Shown here: piece after piece, positions 1,810-46,823 of the stretch
How the letters are laid out: every line of letters starts with the position of its first letter
Numbering within the stretch: position 1 is the stretch's first letter
Virus record (IMG/VR): IMGVR_UViG_3300027749_000044
DNA: 64,000 bases
From: a virus
Reading direction: 5' to 3' (one strand)
Position numbers and translations under genes: made by a program
Notes under the pieces: model-generated
The model's input: only the letters and a program-made list of their open reading frames with translations
Database searches by the model: none
What the model was told of the DNA's origin: nothing

Positions 1810-4302
1810 ATGGCGAAGTTTTATACAGAAGTAAATATTCGTGGAAATACAATTTTTGTTCGCGGCTATGATAATGGTAAAAGAGTCCAACGGAGAGTAG
1901 ATTACAAACCATATTTGTTTGTCTCCACAAAAAATTCTTCGGCTGAATATCGGTCACTCGACGGACACAAAGCCGATAAGATCGATTTTGATAATATCAA
2001 AGAAGCCAAAAATTTCATAAAAAGTTATTCTGGTGTTGAGGGAATGACCATTTATGGTCTTACTTCATTCCTTTATGCATATCTTAATGATGAGTATCCA
2101 GGCGAAGTCCAGTATGACCTGGATATGATCCGTAAGTTGGGTCTTGATATCGAATGTGCGCCCGAAGAAGGCGAAGATCATGGTTTTCCTGATATCCAGT
2201 TAGCTAACCAACCGATCACAGCAATCACATGTTCACTCAAAGGTAAGATGATGACCTTTGGGCTTAAGCCATATAAGGTAACTGATTCTAATGTTACTTA
2301 TAAAAAATGTGCTGATGAACGGCAACTATTGTTGGAGTTTATTGGATATTGGGAAAATGTAGATCCAGATATCGTCACAGGATGGAATATTGAATTTTTC
2401 GATATTCCATATCTTATTAATCGTATTAAACGAATTCTTGGTGAAGATTATGCCAAACGCCTAAGCCCTTGGAGGATGCTAGAAGAAAAATTGATTGAAA
2501 TCCAAGGCAAGGAACAACAGACTTTCCGGCCCATGGGTGTTTCTGTACTTGATTATCTCCGTGTCTATAAGCAATTCACATATGTACAACAAGAAAGCTA
2601 TAAGCTCGAAAACATTGCATTTGTTGAATTGGGTGAACATAAGCTTGATTATTCTGAATATGATAATCTTACTGAGTTTTATCGAAAAGATCACCAAAAG
2701 TATATCGATTATAACATTCACGACGTACGTCTGATCGATATGCTTGAAGAGAAGCTAGGTCTACTTGATCTCGGCTTGACTCTTTCTTATGATGCCAAGA
2801 TCACATATGATGATATGTTCACCAGCATTCGTCTATGGGATATCATCATTCATAATTATCTTCTTGATCAAAAGATTGTCATTCCTATGCCAAGTGGGTA
2901 TAAAAAGGATGATAAATTTGAAGGTGCATATGTACGCGAACCTAGAGTTGGTATGCACAAGTGGGTTGCCACTTTCGACGTGAATAGTCTATATCCGAGT
3001 TTGATCGTACAGAATAACATGTCTCCTGAAACTTTCCGGGGCAAAGTAAAAATGCCGGATGTTGATGAACTATTGAAAGGCAATATTGACGAACGCTTAT
3101 GGAACAAACTACATGATGCCGACTATGCTCTATCGGCAAATGGGGCACTTTGGGATAAGTCAGAACAAGGTATCTTTCCTAAACTAGTTCTGAAAATGTA
3201 CGATGAACGCAAAGCATATCAAGCAAAGTTGAAAGAAGCAAAACAAAAGAATAGTAAGGATATCTCTAGATATCATAATCTACAATTGGTCAAAAAGATT
3301 GTTCTTAACAGTTTGTTCGGCGCAACCGGTCACCCAGCATTTCGTTATTATCAAAATGACTATGCTGAAGGCATCACGATCCATGGCAAGCTTGCTATTC
3401 AGTGGGTTGCGCAAGATATCGATGCGTATTTGAATAAGATTCTAAAAACAGAAGGCAAGCAATATGTTGTTTATTGTGATACCGATTCTGTATTTGTTAC
3501 ATTAGACGTAGTTGTAAATATGACGGGGCTTACAAATACTCCCGAGATTGTGGATTTTGTTGCTCATTTTTGCGAAGACAAGTTAGAAAAAATCATAGAA
3601 AAATCATTTGAAAACTTGAAGAATTATACAAATTCTTACGTAAATCAAATGAAAATGAAGCGAGAAAATATCGCTGATACTTCGATCTTCCTTGCGAAGA
3701 AGAAGTATATCATGAATGTTTGGGACAGTGAAGGCTTTAGATACGAAACACCAAAACTTTACATCAAGGGCGTAGAAGCCGTTAGGTCTTCAACTCCAGC
3801 ATCATGTCGCGAAAAACTCAAAGAGAGTATGAAGATCATTATGTTGGGGTCAAACCAAAAATTGATCGATTATATTGATGGTTTCCGGGAAAAATTCAAG
3901 AAAATGCCATATGAAGATATTGCGTTTCCACGAGGAGTAAATGGTATCTCAAAATATTCGTCTGGAACTTCACAGAAACTTTATACTGACGGAACTCCTA
4001 TTCACGTACGAGGAACGATTGTATACAACCATCTATTGAAAAAAAATAAACTTGACGCAAAATATCCAACAATCAAAGAGGGCGAAAAAATTAAGTTTTG
4101 TTATATGAAATTACCAAATACATTCCAGGAAGATGTAATTTCATCTCCTGGTGATCTTCCTCATGAATTGAATATTCATAGATTTATTGATTTTGATACC
4201 CAATTCGATAAAGCATTTCTTGCTCCAATTAAGAATATTACAGATGCGATTGGATGGAAAACAGAGAACATTTCCACCCTTGAGTCATTTTTCGAAGACT
4301 AA
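1810..4302 (+). CDS. 43: Family B DNA polymerase
   Basis: Exonuclease DIE motif, DVNSLYPS, KIVLNSLFG, YCDTDS; no intein-sized insertion. Confidence 0.98.
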   Translation: MAKFYTEVNIRGNTIFVRGYDNGKRVQRRVDYKPYLFVSTKNSSAEYRSLDGHKADKIDFDNIKEAKNFIKSYSGVEGMTIYGLTSFLYAYLNDEYPGEVQYDLDMIRKLGLDIECAPEEGEDHGFPDIQLANQPITAITCSLKGKMMTFGLKPYKVTDSNVTYKKCADERQLLLEFIGYWENVDPDIVTGWNIEFFDIPYLINRIKRILGEDYAKRLSPWRMLEEKLIEIQGKEQQTFRPMGVSVLDYLRVYKQFTYVQQESYKLENIAFVELGEHKLDYSEYDNLTEFYRKDHQKYIDYNIHDVRLIDMLEEKLGLLDLGLTLSYDAKITYDDMFTSIRLWDIIIHNYLLDQKIVIPMPSGYKKDDKFEGAYVREPRVGMHKWVATFDVNSLYPSLIVQNNMSPETFRGKVKMPDVDELLKGNIDERLWNKLHDADYALSANGALWDKSEQGIFPKLVLKMYDERKAYQAKLKEAKQKNSKDISRYHNLQLVKKIVLNSLFGATGHPAFRYYQNDYAEGITIHGKLAIQWVAQDIDAYLNKILKTEGKQYVVYCDTDSVFVTLDVVVNMTGLTNTPEIVDFVAHFCEDKLEKIIEKSFENLKNYTNSYVNQMKMKRENIADTSIFLAKKKYIMNVWDSEGFRYETPKLYIKGVEAVRSSTPASCREKLKESMKIIMLGSNQKLIDYIDGFREKFKKMPYEDIAFPRGVNGISKYSSGTSQKLYTDGTPIHVRGTIVYNHLLKKNKLDAKYPTIKEGEKIKFCYMKLPNTFQEDVISSPGDLPHELNIHRFIDFDTQFDKAFLAPIKNITDAIGWKTENISTLESFFED

Positions 4303-40960: not shown

Positions 40961-41277
40961 TCAATGGTTGTAAACTAAACTATTAAAAGCTGGGCAACAC
41001 GGGAGTGCGAATCTCCCCGCCTCCACCAAAGGTACACAGCCGCAACAGGTCTTGATGGGGCTATAAGCCAAAGTAGAGTGAAAGCCTCTACCTGTGTATC
41101 TTTGTTGGGGGCGAATAGAATCGACTGACAGTTAGTAGATAGAATAGCAACTCGGGTAGTTCCGTTAATGACTAAAAACTGTAAATGTCGCAGCTAATGA
41201 CAACACTGTGGAATTTGCTCTAGCAGCATAATCTACACGGGCTTTGCAAGTTGAGCCTCGGAACAGAATCAACTTGC
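40961..41277 (+). ncRNA. ssrA: Circularly permuted two-piece tmRNA
   Basis: Acceptor piece ends CGCCTCC-A-CCA (41018-41028); coding piece starts GGGGGCG (41107) giving G3:U70; tag ORF 41190-41231 AANDNTVEFALAA*; 3' pseudoknot; ACTAAATA upstream; 5' end approximate. Confidence 0.9.
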
Positions 41278-41694: not shown

Positions 41695-41761
41695 GTGCTG
41701 GGCTCCTTGTATGAGGACTAGAGTAGGTGGGACCGCTATCCGTGACCTACACATATTTATA
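41692..41761 (-). promoter_or_regulatory. Late promoter plus structured leader of the endonuclease (copy 1)
   Basis: TATAAATA; gtaggt/acctac stem; tcct/agga hairpin over the AAGGAG RBS. Confidence 0.7.
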
Positions 41762-41786
41762 CTAAATAAGGATACAGGACGAACAT

Positions 41787-41856
41787 AACGCACCTATGGC
41801 ACTAGCGGCGTAAGCCGTGCCGGGGTTCGGGGAGTACCTTGCAACAGAAACTCCCC
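41787..41856 (+). ncRNA. Second tmRNA tag-plus-pseudoknot module
   Basis: aac gca cct atg gca cta gcg gcg taa (NAPMALAA*), then cggggt/accttg and ggggagt/actcccc stems with AACAGAA linker. Confidence 0.75.
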
Positions 41857-41906
41857 ACTTTCACTAAATAGTTTATCCAACCACAGGTAACAAACAGGAG
41901 GCAGAC

Positions 41907-42783: not shown

Positions 42784-43017
42784 ATGGAAATAAAGATCAA
42801 GTCGGCTGATACATTCTATGACGACATTGAGGACTTGGTTTGGCAGCATGACATCAATTATATTGATGCTGTTGTACTATACTGTGAAATTAACAATCTG
42901 GAAATCGAAAGTGTAGTATCTCTCGTCCGAAAAAATGAAAATCTAAAATCAAAAATTTCATTGGATGCAGAAGTACTACACTTTCTTCCTAAGGTTCAAC
43001 GTCTACCAATTGAATGA
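42784..43017 (+). CDS. 33: Late transcription coactivator
   Basis: F..IE.LV..INYIDAV..YCE.N.LE.E..LK.KI..A..LHFLP; 33-59-32 synteny. Confidence 0.85.
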   Translation: MEIKIKSADTFYDDIEDLVWQHDINYIDAVVLYCEINNLEIESVVSLVRKNENLKSKISLDAEVLHFLPKVQRLPIE

Positions 43018-43607
43018 CCCCCTATGAATCTTATGTAATGTATCTTGCGCTCAAACGGCATTTTACGTCGGAATCTTATGATTTTATCAAATATAATGGA
43101 AAAATTCCTGTCTCGCCTGCCGCATTTGACGCAAGAAAAGACAAATATCAATTTCAAAAGCTTTCTAAAAAAGAAGACGTCAAAAACTTTCTTGTCGCGA
43201 ATTTTGTGGAGACTGGTCCTAATATTTGGGTTGGAGACCTTGTATCTAATAGCCGAAGTGATCATATATATAATGTATGGTTGGGCAGACAGCAATCTTT
43301 GACCAGAACATTTAAAACCGATCTTGAAAAATTGAAATCCAATTTTGATGAAAATTTCAAACCAACGGAAACTTCAAGTCATCCTTATTTGTTAAAATTG
43401 TTTTTGTCCAAATCTATTTCGATTGAAACACTGATTATTTTGAATGAACTGGTTGCCTTTTTCCCTGCATGGTGTAAGATACTAAAAGATGATCCGATAT
43501 GGGCAAATGTATATTTACTATGTAACAAATATAAACCGTTCATTAAATTTGATAAACAAAAATTTAAAGAATTGGCCATAAAAACAATTAATGATAATAA
43601 GGAATAA
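43014..43607 (+). CDS. 59: Helicase loader
   Basis: Y..YLALK.HF..YDFIKYNGK..F..RKDKYQF.KL..ISIETL. Confidence 0.9.
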   Translation: MTPYESYVMYLALKRHFTSESYDFIKYNGKIPVSPAAFDARKDKYQFQKLSKKEDVKNFLVANFVETGPNIWVGDLVSNSRSDHIYNVWLGRQQSLTRTFKTDLEKLKSNFDENFKPTETSSHPYLLKLFLSKSISIETLIILNELVAFFPAWCKILKDDPIWANVYLLCNKYKPFIKFDKQKFKELAIKTINDNKE

Positions 43608-44474: not shown

Positions 44475-44563
44475 TTAAATGATGGTATAAATAAACATGC
44501 TGATGCTCCTTGCTAGCTATTAGAGTGACTGGGCACCCAACCGCGAGTCACATTATATTTATA
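44475..44563 (-). pseudogene. Endonuclease remnant: late promoter, structured leader (copy 2) and MFIYTII* stub
   Basis: Same layout as 41692-41761 with compensatory changes; same atgtttatttat start. Confidence 0.7.
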
Positions 44564-44656
44564 GTCCTGTAGTTTAGTGGTAAAACACCTGGCTTATACC
44601 CAGCATCGTCTCCAGATTAGAGAGCGTCGTTGGTTCGAATCCAACCGGGACTACCA
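44563..44656 (+). tRNA. tRNA-Ile (UAU) with long variable arm
   Basis: ctgg-cttatac-ccag, TTCGAAT, A73, CCA; about 25-nt extra arm. Confidence 0.8.
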
Positions 44657-44671
44657 ACATACCAAATATTA

Positions 44672-44746
44672 GGCCCTGTAGCTCAATGTTAGAGCAAACA
44701 ATTCTAAACTGTTAGGTTGTGGGTTCAAGTCCCACCGGGGTCGCCA
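44672..44746 (+). tRNA. Amber suppressor tRNA (CUA)
   Basis: aacaa-ttCTAaa-ctgtt arm (A31-C39 mismatch), normal D and T arms, G73, CCA. Confidence 0.78.
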
Positions 44747-44768
44747 ATACTATATAATGGAGAATCAC

Positions 44769-44921
44769 ATGGAACACCCAGAAAATATTTTAGAGCCGAA
44801 TGAATTGACAGAAGAAGATTTTACCGTTGTTGATGACTGGACAAAACAATATCTTCTTATGGCATATAATGCTATTCTAGAACAAGATTTAACCCAATTT
44901 GAGGATGATTATAATGCATAG
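44769..44921 (+). CDS. Small acidic protein (not in ORF track), ends in TAG
   Basis: GGAG RBS; MEHPENILEP..EDDYNA, 50 aa. Confidence 0.6.
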   Translation: MEHPENILEPNELTEEDFTVVDDWTKQYLLMAYNAILEQDLTQFEDDYNA

Positions 44922-44952
44922 GTAGATTTATTATCAAACAGGACCTCCGTAA
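44914..44952 (+). promoter_or_regulatory. Candidate leader peptide MHR-[UAG]-IYYQTGPP-[UAA]
   Basis: GAGGA 8 nt upstream; in-frame amber; Pro-Pro-stop; alternative hairpins follow. Confidence 0.5.
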
Positions 44953-45022
44953 TATTCATTTGAGGTCACAATAGGTGACCACATACACCTCATTTAAATT
45001 ATTACAATTACGGAAAAACACA

Positions 45023-45724
45023 ATGAAAAATTTTAGAACTGCATTCGCCAAACTTGCCCATGAAAAGAAAAATACTGCATGGGACCACATTTGCCTTTGT
45101 GTACTGCGCGCCATGGTGGCCAAAAGTAACAAAGACAAATATGAAATTGCGACCGCCCAATTAATGCGGGCATTTAGTTTAAACCGACGGCTACACGAAT
45201 ACGATTACCAAGGCATTTATAATGCTCTGTTGTATCGACATTTTCATAAAATGACTGAGCCGCAATGGGAAATAATGAAAACAAAGAGTCTTTGGTTTCC
45301 ATACGATCAATTCGACACGTACGATGAATTTGTATTATATCGCGAATTGATGGAGAAAATCAAGGAGTCCGTATGTAATACGGGTACTTTTCCAGACAAG
45401 GAATACGCCTTTATTTTTGTCAGAAAGGATCTCAGTCCAGAACAAATCATTGTACAATCAAACCATGCATCCATTGAATTGGGGCATCGACTTGGTGAAA
45501 CTGGGTCTAGCATTAGTAATCTTCATATTGCTCTTATTGGTGTGGATAATCTATCTGCCCTTGAAGATGTTGGTGAATTGCTTAGAAAAAATAACTTTGA
45601 TTACACTTTCTTTTTAGAACCAGATCTAAACAATGAAATGACCGCGATTGCTTCTTATCCTATTAAAAATAGTCAAAAGAGGTTTCTTCGGAACTACGAT
45701 AAACTATCATTTGCCAACCTATAA
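45023..45724 (+). CDS. Two-domain protein with C-terminal Pth2-like peptidyl-tRNA hydrolase domain
   Basis: IFVRKDLS..VQSNHA..FLEPDLNNEMTAIA..L, recalled as Pth2-like; ATG 45023 or GTG 44975. Confidence 0.7.
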   Translation: MKNFRTAFAKLAHEKKNTAWDHICLCVLRAMVAKSNKDKYEIATAQLMRAFSLNRRLHEYDYQGIYNALLYRHFHKMTEPQWEIMKTKSLWFPYDQFDTYDEFVLYRELMEKIKESVCNTGTFPDKEYAFIFVRKDLSPEQIIVQSNHASIELGHRLGETGSSISNLHIALIGVDNLSALEDVGELLRKNNFDYTFFLEPDLNNEMTAIASYPIKNSQKRFLRNYDKLSFANL

Positions 45725-45746: not shown

Positions 45747-45819
45747 AGGCAGCCTAGCATCTCGGATAAGATGCACCGTACATGTCGGAGAAACCAGGTT
45801 CGACTCCTGGGGCTTGCCT
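45747..45819 (+). ncRNA. tRNA-like element at the 5' end of the gene 32 transcript
   Basis: Closing stem, gcatct/agatgc arm, 3-bp anticodon-like arm, perfect ccagg-TTCGACT-cctgg; no CCA. Confidence 0.65.
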
Positions 45820-45890: not shown

Positions 45891-46823
45891 ATGGTAGATT
45901 TTGCCTCACTAAAAAAGAACCGTCAGTCATCACTAGAGAAGCTAACGGCAGAATTGAATAAAATGAGTTCGCCGGCGAATGGCGCCGATGATACTCGGTT
46001 TTGGCAACCTACAGCCGATAAGGCTGGTAACGGTTCAGCTACAATCCGATTCCTACCCGCTCCCGGATCAGAAGATGTCCCATTTGTTCGACTATTCGAC
46101 CATGCATTCAAGGGTCCAACAGGCAAGTGGTATATTGAAAAGTCATTGACAACTATTGGTCAAAACGATCCGGTCAGTGAATATAATAGTAAGCTCTGGA
46201 ATATGTCAGATGACGATAAGTCTCCTGAGCGCGAACAAGTACGCAGACAAAAGCGTCGCTTGTATTATGTTTCCAACATTTATGTCGTAAAAGATTCTGC
46301 TCATCCTGAAAATGAAGGCAAGGTCTTCCTATTCAAGTATGGCAAGAAGATTTTCGACAAGCTAAATGATCTAATGAATCCATCGTTCGAGGATGAAACT
46401 CCAGTAAATCCATACGATCTTTGGGAAGGCGCAAATTTCCGTCTCAAGATTCGTCAAGTTGATAATTATCGTAACTACGATAAGTCAGACTTCGCGGATG
46501 TGGCTCCTTTGTTGGATGACGACGAGGAACTAGAAAGAATTTGGAAGTCAGAACATTCACTTCAAGCATTTTTGCAACCAAGTGAATTTAAGCCTTATGC
46601 GGATCTCAAGAAGAGACTGCACGAAGTCCTTGCCTTAGAAGAAGAAGATGATCTACCTGCGCGTCGATCTTCAACAAAAGCCAAGAAAGTGGAGGTTGAT
46701 GACGAGGACGATATCCCTTTTGATGCAACTCCAAAGCGTAAGGCCCCAAAAAAGGCCGAAGCCGAGGAGACAGAAGAAGAAGATTTCATGGAATATTTTA
46801 AGAATTTAACAAAGGAAGATTAA
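45891..46823 (+). CDS. 32: Single-stranded DNA-binding protein
   Basis: DTRFW..GNGSA.IRFLPA, GKVFLFKYGKKIFDK, GANFRLK..NYDKS.F, acidic tail. Confidence 0.96.
   Translation: MVDFASLKKNRQSSLEKLTAELNKMSSPANGADDTRFWQPTADKAGNGSATIRFLPAPGSEDVPFVRLFDHAFKGPTGKWYIEKSLTTIGQNDPVSEYNSKLWNMSDDDKSPEREQVRRQKRRLYYVSNIYVVKDSAHPENEGKVFLFKYGKKIFDKLNDLMNPSFEDETPVNPYDLWEGANFRLKIRQVDNYRNYDKSDFADVAPLLDDDEELERIWKSEHSLQAFLQPSEFKPYADLKKRLHEVLALEEEDDLPARRSSTKAKKVEVDDEDDIPFDATPKRKAPKKAEAEETEEEDFMEYFKNLTKED

What the first reader, a model, noticed from the sequence alone, without database searches (positions are those of the whole stretch)
44672..45724. Candidate termination/stalling-sensing switch: amber tRNA, stop-interrupted Pro-Pro leader peptide, and Pth2-like hydrolase
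Seen: 44914-44952 reads ATG CAT AGG TAG ATT TAT TAT CAA ACA GGA CCT CCG TAA (MHR-amber-IYYQTGPP-ochre), with GAGGA 8 nt upstream. It lies about 170 nt after a CUA-anticodon tRNA and 70 nt before a gene with a Pth2-like domain. GACCTC inside the Gly-Pro-Pro codons (44942-44947) can pair with GAGGTC (44962-44967). That pairing excludes the hairpin GGTCAC/GTGACC (44964-44980), which buries the alternative GTG start at 44975, and also excludes TGAGG/CCTCA. Established: Pro-Pro before a stop codon slows peptide release and induces SsrA tagging in E. coli; Pth recycles peptidyl-tRNA. Inference: ribosomes reach the PP-stop only when UAG is read through (RF1 limiting or suppressor tRNA present), then pause and refold the RNA, coupling Pth expression to termination capacity. 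Caveat: the putative RBS and ATG lie in the last codons of the upstream 50-aa ORF, so chance is not excluded.
Basis: partly seen in the sequence, partly recalled or inferred. Interest (0 to 1): 0.9.

Follow-up and report, generated by a model that had tools for sequence, protein, structure and literature searches.

The report
Stop-readthrough-gated leader before phage Pth2-like gene
A T4-like phage with the normal genetic code carries a UAG-reading tRNA next to a tiny leader gene whose UAG probably has to be read through before a tRNA-hydrolase-like gene can be translated. Many distant phages keep this design, which would give their unexplained stop-reading tRNAs a target, but nothing has been tested at the bench.

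Summary
The window holds tRNA(CUA) at 44672-44746 and the micro-ORF MHR-UAG-IYYQTGPP-UAA at 44914-44952. The 233-aa protein (45023-45724) has a C-terminal domain with the Pth2 fold (Z 14.2 to 1wn2).

In 12 of 12 loci (11 lineages, 25-72% protein identity) with this fused gene type, the 160 nt upstream hold an in-frame TAG followed 3-8 codons later by Pro-Pro (Ser-Pro in L030). Chance is about 2-3% per locus. The Pro-Pro region pairs with the Shine-Dalgarno region of the Pth2-like gene, and the flanks covary between lineages.

Of 80 metagenome loci, 49 carry a tRNA(CUA). The two loci with tRNA(UUA) use TAA as the gating stop. The window uses the standard code.

The likely mechanism is this. The phage tRNA reads through the UAG, the ribosome pauses on GPP-stop over the anti-SD arm, the start site is unmasked and the hydrolase-like protein is made.

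This copy also lacks the Arg of the RGPP-type arrest motif that most relatives have.

This scan has already found the same module in other genomes. I found no published description. No experiment exists.

The parts
44672..44746 (+). tRNA with anticodon CUA (amber suppressor type). It is 75 nt and encodes its own CCA. The anticodon loop is UUCUAAA, and positions 31 and 39 form an A-C mismatch.
   Evidence: Called by ARAGORN and by the Rfam tRNA model at 62.2 bits. Twelve such tRNAs from related loci are diverse in sequence. They keep the cloverleaf through compensatory changes in 19 of 20 pairs, and UCUAAA is invariant.
44757..44921 (+). ORF54, a small acidic protein with a good SD (GGAG). It ends in TAG at 44919-21. 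Readthrough would carry ribosomes in this frame across the anti-SD arm to TGA at 44961-63.
   Evidence: In the L001 group the homologous 52-aa ORF is in frame with the TAG-PP tail. The window has a net 2-nt deletion, so ORF54 ends at a second TAG 4 nt upstream.
44901..44905 (+). GAGGA, the Shine-Dalgarno sequence of the leader micro-ORF, 8 nt before ATG 44914.
   Evidence: TTTGAGGA and ATGCA are invariant in alignment A1. They also code for F-E-D/E, so this conservation is ambiguous.
44914..44952 (+). Leader micro-ORF M-H-R-UAG-I-Y-Y-Q-T-G-P-P-UAA. The UAG is at 44923-25, the Gly-Pro-Pro codons at 44941-49 and the UAA at 44950-52.
   Evidence: The same design is found in 11 related loci. Examples are MLDFR*VCLKPP*, MM*IKIRDPPC, MERALVNT*NNLIRGPPC and MFVDQQPGG*VIIPP*.
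44946..44953 (+). Anti-SD arm UCCGUAAU. It overlaps the last base of the first Pro codon, the second Pro codon, the UAA stop and one base beyond it.
   Evidence: It is part of the minimum-free-energy fold. The duplex energy is -10.5 kcal/mol, and only 1.1% of other 27-nt segments of the window pair as well with the start region.
44964..44980 (+). Hairpin GGTCAC...GTGACC, found only in this window. Part of its sequence lies in a 14-nt insertion, and it sits in the loop of the long-range helix.
   Evidence: fold. One search shows the 14-nt gap in L001 and L006-L010.
45007..45014 (+). SD arm AUUACGGA. It contains the GGA Shine-Dalgarno of the Pth2-like gene, 8 nt before the ATG.
45023..45724 (+). 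Gene for a 233-aa two-domain protein. Residues 1-122 form a helical N-domain with no match to a known fold. Residues 124-228 (nt 45392-45706) form a Pth2-like domain.
   Evidence: - AlphaFold2 with a 126-sequence alignment gives pLDDT 91.4 and pTM 0.80.
- Foldseek's top hits are all Pth2 structures: 2zv3, 1wn2, 3erj, 1rlk, 1xty and 1q7s.
- VIA-align gives Z 14.2 and rmsd 2.1 A over 105 residues to 1wn2. The best N-domain match is Z 5.2.
- 66 of 96 family members hit Pfam PTH2.

Best explanation
The region is one copy of a widespread phage module. The module has three parts: a suppressor tRNA, a short leader ORF with an in-frame stop that matches the tRNA's anticodon, and a Pth2-like gene. The phage otherwise uses the standard code.

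Proposed mechanism in this window:
1. Ribosomes start at ATG 44914. Others arrive on ORF54.
2. Normally they are released at UAG (44923 for the micro-ORF, 44919 for ORF54), about 20 nt before the helix.
3. The helix between 44946-53 and 45007-14 therefore stays closed and hides the Shine-Dalgarno of the Pth2-like gene.
4. When charged tRNA(CUA) outcompetes RF1, the ribosome continues. It reaches Gly-Pro-Pro-UAA, a slow peptide-bond and slow termination context, and pauses there.
5. The paused ribosome covers the anti-SD arm, the start site is freed, and the Pth2-like protein is made in proportion to suppressor activity.

Shown here:
- the sequence elements;
- their conservation and position;
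- covariation of the helix;
- stop-anticodon matching;
- the Pth2 fold;
- the standard code.

Inferred:
- that the tRNA is expressed and charged;
- that the ribosome pauses;
- that the pause unmasks the start site;
- what the hydrolase-like protein acts on. My guess is peptidyl- or aminoacyl-tRNA released as a by-product of genome-wide UAG readthrough.
For: 1. Leader conservation.
- TAG, then 3-8 codons, then Pro-Pro (Ser-Pro in L030) lies 57-79 nt before the gene start in 12 of 12 fused-type loci. These represent 11 lineages at 25-72% protein identity.
- Chance is 2-3% per locus.
- Most of these leaders have their own strong SD.

2. The leader is translated.
- The CCNCCN is always in the Pro-Pro frame relative to the TAG.
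- Relatives carry R-(G/D/S/A)-P-P with varied Arg codons: AGA 25, CGT 13, CGA 6, CGC 5, CGG 3.
- The first Pro codon also varies: CCT 30, CCG 12, CCA 8, CCC 2.
- Selection is therefore acting on the peptide.

3. RNA structure.
- The Pro-Pro region pairs with positions -24 to +3 of the gene in 10 of 12 loci, at -10.5 to -19.2 kcal/mol.
- The flanks differ between lineages but stay complementary. Examples: window UCCGUAAU/AUUACGGA, L032 UCCUUGUUU/AAACAAGGA, and L041 and L064 with other sequences again.
- The helix is in the minimum-free-energy fold of the window, L001 and L006.

4. Link to the tRNA.
- A tRNA(CUA) lies within 2 kb in 9 of 11 viral loci and in 49 of 80 metagenome loci with flanks of 1.5 kb or less. 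It accounts for 49 of the 94 tRNAs found there.
- Both loci with tRNA(UUA) use TAA as the gate. L072 has ML-TAA-...IRGPPC, and L047 has TAA as codon 4 of the Pth2-like gene.
- Stops preceding R-x-P-P are TAG 47, TAA 7 and TGA 1.
- In L006-L009 a different, odd-shaped tRNA(CUA) has replaced the L001-type one at the same place.

5. Standard code.
- Coding coverage under table 11 is 91%, and TAG ends 14 of 92 ORFs.

6. Literature.
- RGPP and RAPP are strong arrest motifs (PMC12992588; PMC10951233).
- A C-terminal Pro-Pro before a stop, and Gly-Pro-Pro, both slow the ribosome (PMC3985003).
Against: - No expression, charging, toeprint or reporter data exist for any member.
- This copy lacks the Arg that published work finds essential for RAPP/RGPP arrest; AAPP derivatives served as arrest-defective controls. 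It has only T-G-P-P-stop, a weaker pause that EF-P can relieve.
- Its helix is only 8 bp (-10.5 kcal/mol). The fold z-scores are modest, -1.5 to -2.3.
- The leader's SD and ATG lie inside ORF54, and ORF54 is out of frame with the leader. This copy could therefore be partly decayed.
- L036 shows no anti-SD pairing and L026 only weak pairing.
- A strong suppressor should be costly, since TAG ends 15% of the phage's own ORFs.
- An earlier later-check of the same idea in another genome gave the bold reading only 20 in 100.
Confidence: 0.6

Rival explanations
1. In this window the leader is a decaying remnant. The module is real in relatives, but here the arrest motif has lost its Arg and ORF54 has shifted frame. 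The Pth2-like gene would then be translated constitutively from its own weak SD.
For: - The window has TGPP instead of RGPP or RDPP. Arg is required for arrest in published assays.
- The window has a net 2-nt deletion relative to L001.
- Its helix is the weakest of the positive cases.
Against: - After the frame change both frames still end in TAG, 4 nt apart. TAG makes up only 15% of stops.
- The ATG, the SD, the Pro-Pro-stop and the helix are all kept between the window and L001 at about 70% nucleotide identity.
- Other lineages also use Pro-Pro-stop without Arg: L023 has KPP* and L064 has IPP*.
Confidence: 0.2
2. The TAG is just the ordinary stop of a leader ORF. Expression is set by classical translational coupling or by a hairpin, and the Pro-Pro codons after the stop are only the anti-SD sequence CCUCC, never translated. 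The tRNA linkage would be unrelated.
For: - CCU CCN doubles as the anti-SD sequence.
- The first Pro codon is CCT in 30 of 52 leaders.
- The helix is conserved.
Against: - The stop is TAG in 47 of 55 cases although TAA is the commonest stop in the window (62 of 92 ORFs). It changes to TAA where the tRNA is UUA.
- The Pro-Pro is always in frame with the TAG.
- An Arg with varied codons precedes it.
- Some leaders carry two TAGs in a row.
- In L028, L029 and L032 the frame runs on into the gene.
Confidence: 0.1
3. The phage reads TAG as a sense codon (code 15 type recoding), so the leader TAG is an ordinary codon and nothing is gated.
For: Suppressor tRNAs are the hallmark of recoded phages (10.1101/2021.08.26.457843, listed).
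Against: - Table 11 gives 91% coding coverage.
- Reading TAG as sense adds only 3 points to that figure.
- TAG ends 14 of 92 ORFs.
- gp59, gp32 and the other genes checked are intact.
- No other gene in the window has a convincing early in-frame TAG.
Confidence: 0.03
4. The functional output is the readthrough product itself, not unmasking. That product would be an extended ORF54 or leader peptide, or an N-terminally extended Pth2-like protein.
For: In L028, L029 and L032 the leader is in frame with the gene and no stop lies between them.
Against: In the window, the L001 group, L023, L030, L036, L041 and L064 a stop closes the leader before the gene, and L026 is in another frame. The post-TAG peptides share only the motif next to Pro-Pro.
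Confidence: 0.05

Closest known systems
RAPP/RGPP-type regulatory arrest peptides (ApdA, ApdP, ApcA; SecM with RAGP), PMC10951233, PMC7897499, PMC12992588
   Same: Both are short upstream ORFs ending near an R-(A/G)-P-P motif. The stalled ribosome is thought to open a helix that hides the next gene's Shine-Dalgarno. Relatives of this locus carry RGPP, RDPP, RSPP or RAPP.
   Different: - The motif here lies behind an in-frame stop codon, so the input is readthrough, not secretion or membrane insertion.
- There is no signal peptide.
- The nascent chain is very short.
- The window's own copy has TGPP-stop without Arg.
- The context is a phage.
prfB (RF2) autoregulation through an in-frame UGA (from general knowledge)
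   Same: A stop codon early in a reading frame acts as a sensor of how well that stop is recognised.
   Different: In prfB escape is by a +1 frameshift and the sensed factor is the release factor. Here escape would be by a dedicated suppressor tRNA, and the regulated gene is a separate cistron controlled through a helix.
Stop-codon-recoded phages with suppressor tRNAs (code 15: crAss-like, Lak; 10.1101/2021.08.26.457843, PMC7886860)
   Same: Both have a phage-encoded tRNA(CUA) in a host that uses the standard code.
   Different: In the window I found only this leader and the overlapping ORF54 stop as UAG gates, not in-frame TAGs across many late genes. The phage's own genes use TAG as a stop.
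Peptidyl-tRNA hydrolase 2 (Pfam PF01981; PDB 1wn2, 2zv3, 3erj, 1xty, 1q7s)
   Same: The fold of residues 124-228 is the same (Z 14.2). The motifs VR.D, VQ..HA and the acidic residue before ..TA are shared.
   Different: - The GKGK loop is two residues shorter, and its Lys positions are Pro139 and Gln141 in the window.
- An extra 122-residue helical N-domain is fused. In other phages it is a separate overlapping ORF.
- Activity is untested.
Synthetic suppressor-tRNA gates (PMC7969014, listed)
   Same: Expression of a target gene is made to depend on a suppressor tRNA reading an in-frame UAG.
   Different: Those circuits are engineered and place the UAG in the target gene itself. This is a natural element that acts through a leader and an SD-hiding helix.

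Membership tests
Phage suppressor-tRNA / stop-gated leader / Pth2-like module (seen by this scan, unpublished) | A suppressor tRNA on the same strand, close to the Pth2-like gene | tested here: met
   tRNA(CUA) at 44672-44746 lies 277 nt before the gene. The same linkage holds in 9 of 11 viral loci and 49 of 80 metagenome loci.
Phage suppressor-tRNA / stop-gated leader / Pth2-like module (seen by this scan, unpublished) | A short ORF with its own SD and an in-frame stop that matches the tRNA's anticodon | tested here: met
   GAGGA, then 8 nt, then ATG CAT AGG TAG. The two loci with tRNA(UUA) use TAA.
Phage suppressor-tRNA / stop-gated leader / Pth2-like module (seen by this scan, unpublished) | Pro-Pro a few codons after the stop, overlapping an arm that pairs with the next gene's SD | tested here: met
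   GPP lies at 44941-49. The helix pairs 44946-53 with 45007-14 at -10.5 kcal/mol.
RAPP/RGPP arrest peptides | Arg two residues before Pro-Pro, essential for arrest | tested here: not met
   The window has T-G-P-P. AAPP variants are arrest-defective controls in PMC12992588. Most relatives do have R-(G/D/S/A)-P-P.
RAPP/RGPP arrest peptides | Demonstrated ribosome stalling at the motif | not testable with these tools
   This needs toeprinting or an in vitro translation assay.
Peptidyl-tRNA hydrolase 2 (PF01981) | Pth2 alpha/beta fold | tested here: met
   The model has pLDDT 91.4. VIA-align gives 1wn2 Z 14.2 and rmsd 2.1 A over 105 residues. Foldseek probability is 1.00 for six Pth2 entries.
Peptidyl-tRNA hydrolase 2 (PF01981) | Match to the Pfam model | tested here: inconclusive
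   The window's own protein gives no hit at E 0.1 or better. 66 of 96 family members do hit, the best at 2.7e-12. A family profile hits the PDB Pth2 chains 24bt and 2zv3 at 1.5e-6 and 5.6e-6.
Peptidyl-tRNA hydrolase 2 (PF01981) | Catalytic Lys and Asp (K18 and D86 of the Sulfolobus enzyme, recalled from memory and not checked) | tested here: inconclusive
   In the alignment to 2zv3 the GKGK loop is shortened, and the window has Pro139 and Gln141 at the Lys positions. The acidic position is kept (Glu199/Asp201, nearly invariant).
Stop-codon-recoded phage (TAG as sense) | Many genes interrupted by in-frame TAG under the standard code | tested here: not met
   Coding coverage under table 11 is 91%. 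TAG ends 14 of 92 ORFs. No other gated gene was found.
Functional amber suppressor tRNA | Cloverleaf with a 7-nt anticodon loop carrying CUA | tested here: met
   Covariation across 12 relatives supports the structure.
Functional amber suppressor tRNA | Expression, aminoacylation, and the identity of the amino acid | not testable with these tools
The discriminator is G73 in the window, and the acceptor stems differ between lineages.

The most novel reading that the evidence does not exclude
The module is a closed feedback loop. The leader measures how strongly the phage's suppressor tRNA overrides UAG, and it sets the level of a Pth2-like esterase. The esterase's helical N-domain would aim it at tRNA(CUA) carrying a peptide or an amino acid, or at ribosomes stalled after readthrough. 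The phage would thereby hold stop-codon readthrough at a chosen level during infection.
Probability: 0.15. Interest if true: 0.9.

Novelty: new variant of a known kind. Interest (0 to 1): 0.75.

Why it matters
Many phages with the normal genetic code carry suppressor tRNAs whose targets are unknown. The authors of the XacN1 genome paper looked for targets of its two CUA tRNAs and found none (PMC5852040). This module offers a conserved target that travels with the tRNA and is matched to it.

If the mechanism holds, it would be a natural translational switch whose input is stop-codon readthrough. It would be built from parts known elsewhere: an arrest peptide and an SD-hiding helix. It would also link three translation-rescue functions in one phage: a suppressor tRNA, a Pth2-like hydrolase, and a tmRNA that lies 4 kb upstream in this window.

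It would also be a compact, portable sensor of suppressor activity for genetic-code engineering.

Tried and rejected
- A single-sequence AlphaFold2 run of the 233-aa protein gave pLDDT 43 and was useless. The run with an alignment succeeded.
- The direct Pfam scan of the window protein gave no hit. PHROGs gave only weak 'hydrolase' hits.
A2 and A7 worked.
- No whole genome is held for this window, so genome-wide TAG use and the full tRNA set could not be counted.
- TTG 44960 followed by AGG TCA CAA TAG is in frame with the gene. It resembles the 'UAG at codon 3-5' design seen in cultured phages. It has no SD and is absent from the L001 group, so I treat it as chance.
- A scan for other genes with an early in-frame TAG in the window found nothing convincing.
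- For the N-domain, the PDB search's best Z was 5.2 and the Atlas structure search's best TM was 0.50. That is no usable match.
- Nucleotide search against cultured phages found only tRNA-sized matches.
Full report
**What is there**

The window is a divergent T4-like phage. The gp59 helicase loader lies at 43014-43607 and gp32 at 45891-46823. The closest DNA matches among cultured phages are only tRNA-sized.

Between gp59 and gp32 lie, all on the + strand:
- a methyltransferase;
- a 77-aa ORF;
- a 94-nt tRNA with anticodon UAU;
- tRNA(CUA) at 44672-44746;
- ORF54 at 44757-44921;
- the micro-ORF at 44914-44952;
- a 233-aa ORF at 45023-45724;
- a decayed tRNA-like element.

That ORF also ends in TAG (44919-21), 4 nt before the micro-ORF's TAG and in another frame.

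**The code is standard**

Under table 11 a greedy non-overlapping ORF set covers 91% of the window. TAG ends 14 of 92 ORFs. Reading TAG as sense adds only 3 points of coverage. No other gene has a convincing early in-frame TAG.

**The protein**

Direct Pfam search finds nothing. A profile search of 1.84 billion representatives finds 3,622 relatives at E 0.001 or better. Most are stand-alone proteins of about 100 aa. About 20 representatives share the window's fused N-domain.

Of 96 members scanned, 66 hit Pfam PTH2. With a 126-sequence alignment AlphaFold2 gives pLDDT 91.4. Residues 124-228 match archaeal Pth2 at Z 14.2 and rmsd 2.1 A over 105 residues. The six best Foldseek entries are all Pth2. 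Cultured-phage proteins annotated as peptidyl-tRNA hydrolase also match.

The GKGK loop of Pth2 is shortened, and the window has Pro and Gln at the Lys positions. The fold is therefore shown, but the chemistry is not. The N-domain is a helical bundle without a usable match.

I collected relatives from viral contigs, from contigs that encode close homologs and from metagenome contigs.

In the closest group (L001, L006-L010; 71-73% protein identity) the homolog of ORF54 runs in a single frame...TMQA-TAG-ICRPPVPP-TAA. The window differs by a net 2 nt.

In more distant fused-type loci (25-41% identity) the space between tRNA(CUA) and the gene holds a free-standing mini-ORF with a strong SD:
- MLDFR-TAG-VCLKPP-TAA;
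- MSSYT-TAG-IEIKIRGSPFCG;
- MERALVNT-TAG-NNLIRGPPC...;
- MKFKL-TAG-SARSPPL...;
- MFVDQQPGG-TAG-VIIPP-TGA;
- MM-TAG-IKIRDPPC...;
- longer forms.

In all 12 loci (11 lineages) the pattern is present, and the Pro-Pro codons lie 57-79 nt before the start. Chance is 2-3% per 160-nt window, or 0.4-1.5% with the positional limit.

The stand-alone relatives have the same leader, upstream of the separate N-domain ORF or directly upstream of the Pth2-like ORF. It usually carries R-(G/D/S/A)-P-P and often two TAGs.

Arg codons vary (AGA 25, CGT 13, CGA 6, CGC 5, CGG 3) and so does the first Pro codon. The constraint is therefore on the peptide, not only on CCUCC.

**RNA structure**

The Pro-Pro region and the following roughly 12 nt pair with the region from -24 to +3 of the gene. 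Energies are:
- -10.5 kcal/mol in the window;
- -11.4 in L001;
- -13.1 in L023;
- -12.6 in L028;
- -15.2 in L029;
- -14.3 in L030;
- -19.2 in L032;
- -18.5 in L041;
- -15.4 in L064.

In each of these, at most 1.7% of other segments of the same locus pair as well. L026 is weak and L036 is negative.

The flanks of CCUCC and GGAG differ between lineages but stay complementary, which is covariation across independent lineages. The helix is in the minimum-free-energy fold of the window, L001 and L006.

Over 49 leaders of all types, the mean best duplex is -15.2 against -11.3 kcal/mol for upstream controls. It beats all ten controls in 17 cases, where about 4.5 would be expected by chance.

**Link to the tRNA**

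A tRNA(CUA) lies within 2 kb in 9 of 11 viral loci. It is present in 49 of 80 metagenome loci, despite short flanks, always on the same strand. It accounts for 49 of the 94 tRNAs found there.

The tRNAs are diverse. They keep the cloverleaf through compensatory changes in 19 of 20 pairs and share an invariant UCUAAA loop.

Two loci have tRNA(UUA) instead. L072 has ML-TAA-VSCLPYQNRPIRGPPC, and L047 has TAA as codon 4 of the Pth2-like gene. Stops in front of R-x-P-P are TAG 47, TAA 7 and TGA 1.

In L006-L009 a different tRNA(CUA) with a reduced D-arm sits beside the remnant of the L001-type tRNA.

**Mechanism**

This part uses general knowledge of ribosome footprints, about 15 nt 3' of the P-site codon.

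A ribosome released at UAG 44923 or 44919 reaches only to about 44936. That leaves the helix arm at 44946-53 paired. A ribosome held with the second Pro codon in the P site and UAA in the A site covers to about 44963 and must open the helix.

Pro-Pro before a stop, and Gly-Pro-Pro, both slow the ribosome (PMC3985003). RGPP and RAPP give strong arrest, insensitive to EF-P for RAPP-containing ApdA/ApdP, that needs the Arg (PMC12992588).

The window has no Arg, so its pause should be weaker than in most relatives. Readthrough of ORF54's own TAG would also send ribosomes across the arm, without a pause, to TGA 44961-63.

**Why a hydrolase**

This part is inference. Readthrough by a suppressor sends ribosomes into 3' regions and to mRNA ends, which is known to trigger trans-translation (PMC3985003). 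The window also encodes a two-piece tmRNA 4 kb upstream. In L005 an ArfB-like GGQ protein lies next to the module. Tuning a peptidyl-tRNA-hydrolase-like protein to suppressor activity fits this theme.

**Relation to earlier work**

This scan has already reported the same module on other DNA, including RGPP leaders, anti-SD stems and stop-anticodon matching. One later check priced the bold reading of a related cassette at 20 in 100.

I re-derived the main points on my own loci. I also confirmed the direct form, with UAG at codon 3-4 of the Pth2-like gene, in two cultured phages: Salmonella phage Arash and Cronobacter phage GAP32.

Four literature searches found no description of the switch. The XacN1 paper states that targets of its CUA tRNAs could not be identified.

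**Verdict**

This particular copy is a weaker variant without Arg. No experiment exists.

Noticed in passing
window 40966-41231 and 41738-41859 (+): A phage-encoded two-piece (permuted) tmRNA. Rfam tmRNA_permuted scores 86.7 bits against a gathering score of 47, and a second alpha_tmRNA match (38.9 bits, below that family's gathering score of 50) lies about 500 nt downstream. The reading frame ends in ...FALAA, then a stop. It fits the translation-rescue theme of the region.
   Followed up: no
window 44563-44656 (+): A 94-nt tRNA with anticodon UAU has an unusually long extra arm: a 5-bp stem and a 7-nt loop CAGAUUA that itself looks like an anticodon loop with GAU. A 95-nt tRNA(UAU) of the same kind sits near the module in L012 (300-394).
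   Followed up: no
window 45748-45819 (+): A tRNA-like element directly after the Pth2-like gene is 92% conserved with the L001 group, more than the coding DNA. In L006 it is a tRNA-Ile(GAU), scoring 25.5 bits. In the window it has a 4-nt deletion in the anticodon arm and a bulge in the acceptor stem, and neither ARAGORN nor Rfam calls it. It still folds well (z -4.0).
   Followed up: partly
L006-L009, 2624-2745: The tRNA(CUA) is a different, 67-70-nt tRNA with a reduced D-arm (Rfam 36 bits). It is followed by the 3' remnant of the L001-type tRNA(CUA). One suppressor tRNA appears to have replaced another at the same site.
   Followed up: partly
L002-L005, for example L004 2745-3107 and 2938-3327: In the stand-alone relatives the N-domain ORF and the Pth2-like ORF overlap in different frames. 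In the window and about 20 other representatives they are fused, and a second N-domain type is fused in P0005, P0021 and P0069. Whether these are separate coupled genes or a programmed frameshift is open.
   Followed up: no
L005 2076-2414: A 112-aa protein with a GGQ motif, like ArfB or the peptidyl-tRNA hydrolase domain of release factors, lies just upstream of the module.
   Followed up: no
L102 (Salmonella phage Arash OQ632216), 1990-2324 and 3310-3384: The deposited annotation truncates the Pth2-like gene. The full frame starts ATG CTT TAG. The tRNA annotated as tRNA-Phe has anticodon CUA by ARAGORN. GAP32 (L103) likewise has MAQ-TAG at the start of its Pth2-like frame.
   Followed up: partly
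window 44960-44974: TTG AGG TCA CAA TAG is in frame with the Pth2-like gene. It mimics the 'UAG at codon 5' design, but it has no SD and lies in the window-specific insertion.
   Followed up: partly
L021, within 2001-2267: The Pth2-like frame of this 234-kb phage contig has an internal in-frame stop (...YLTDP*VQDW...). I did not check which stop codon it is.
   Followed up: no
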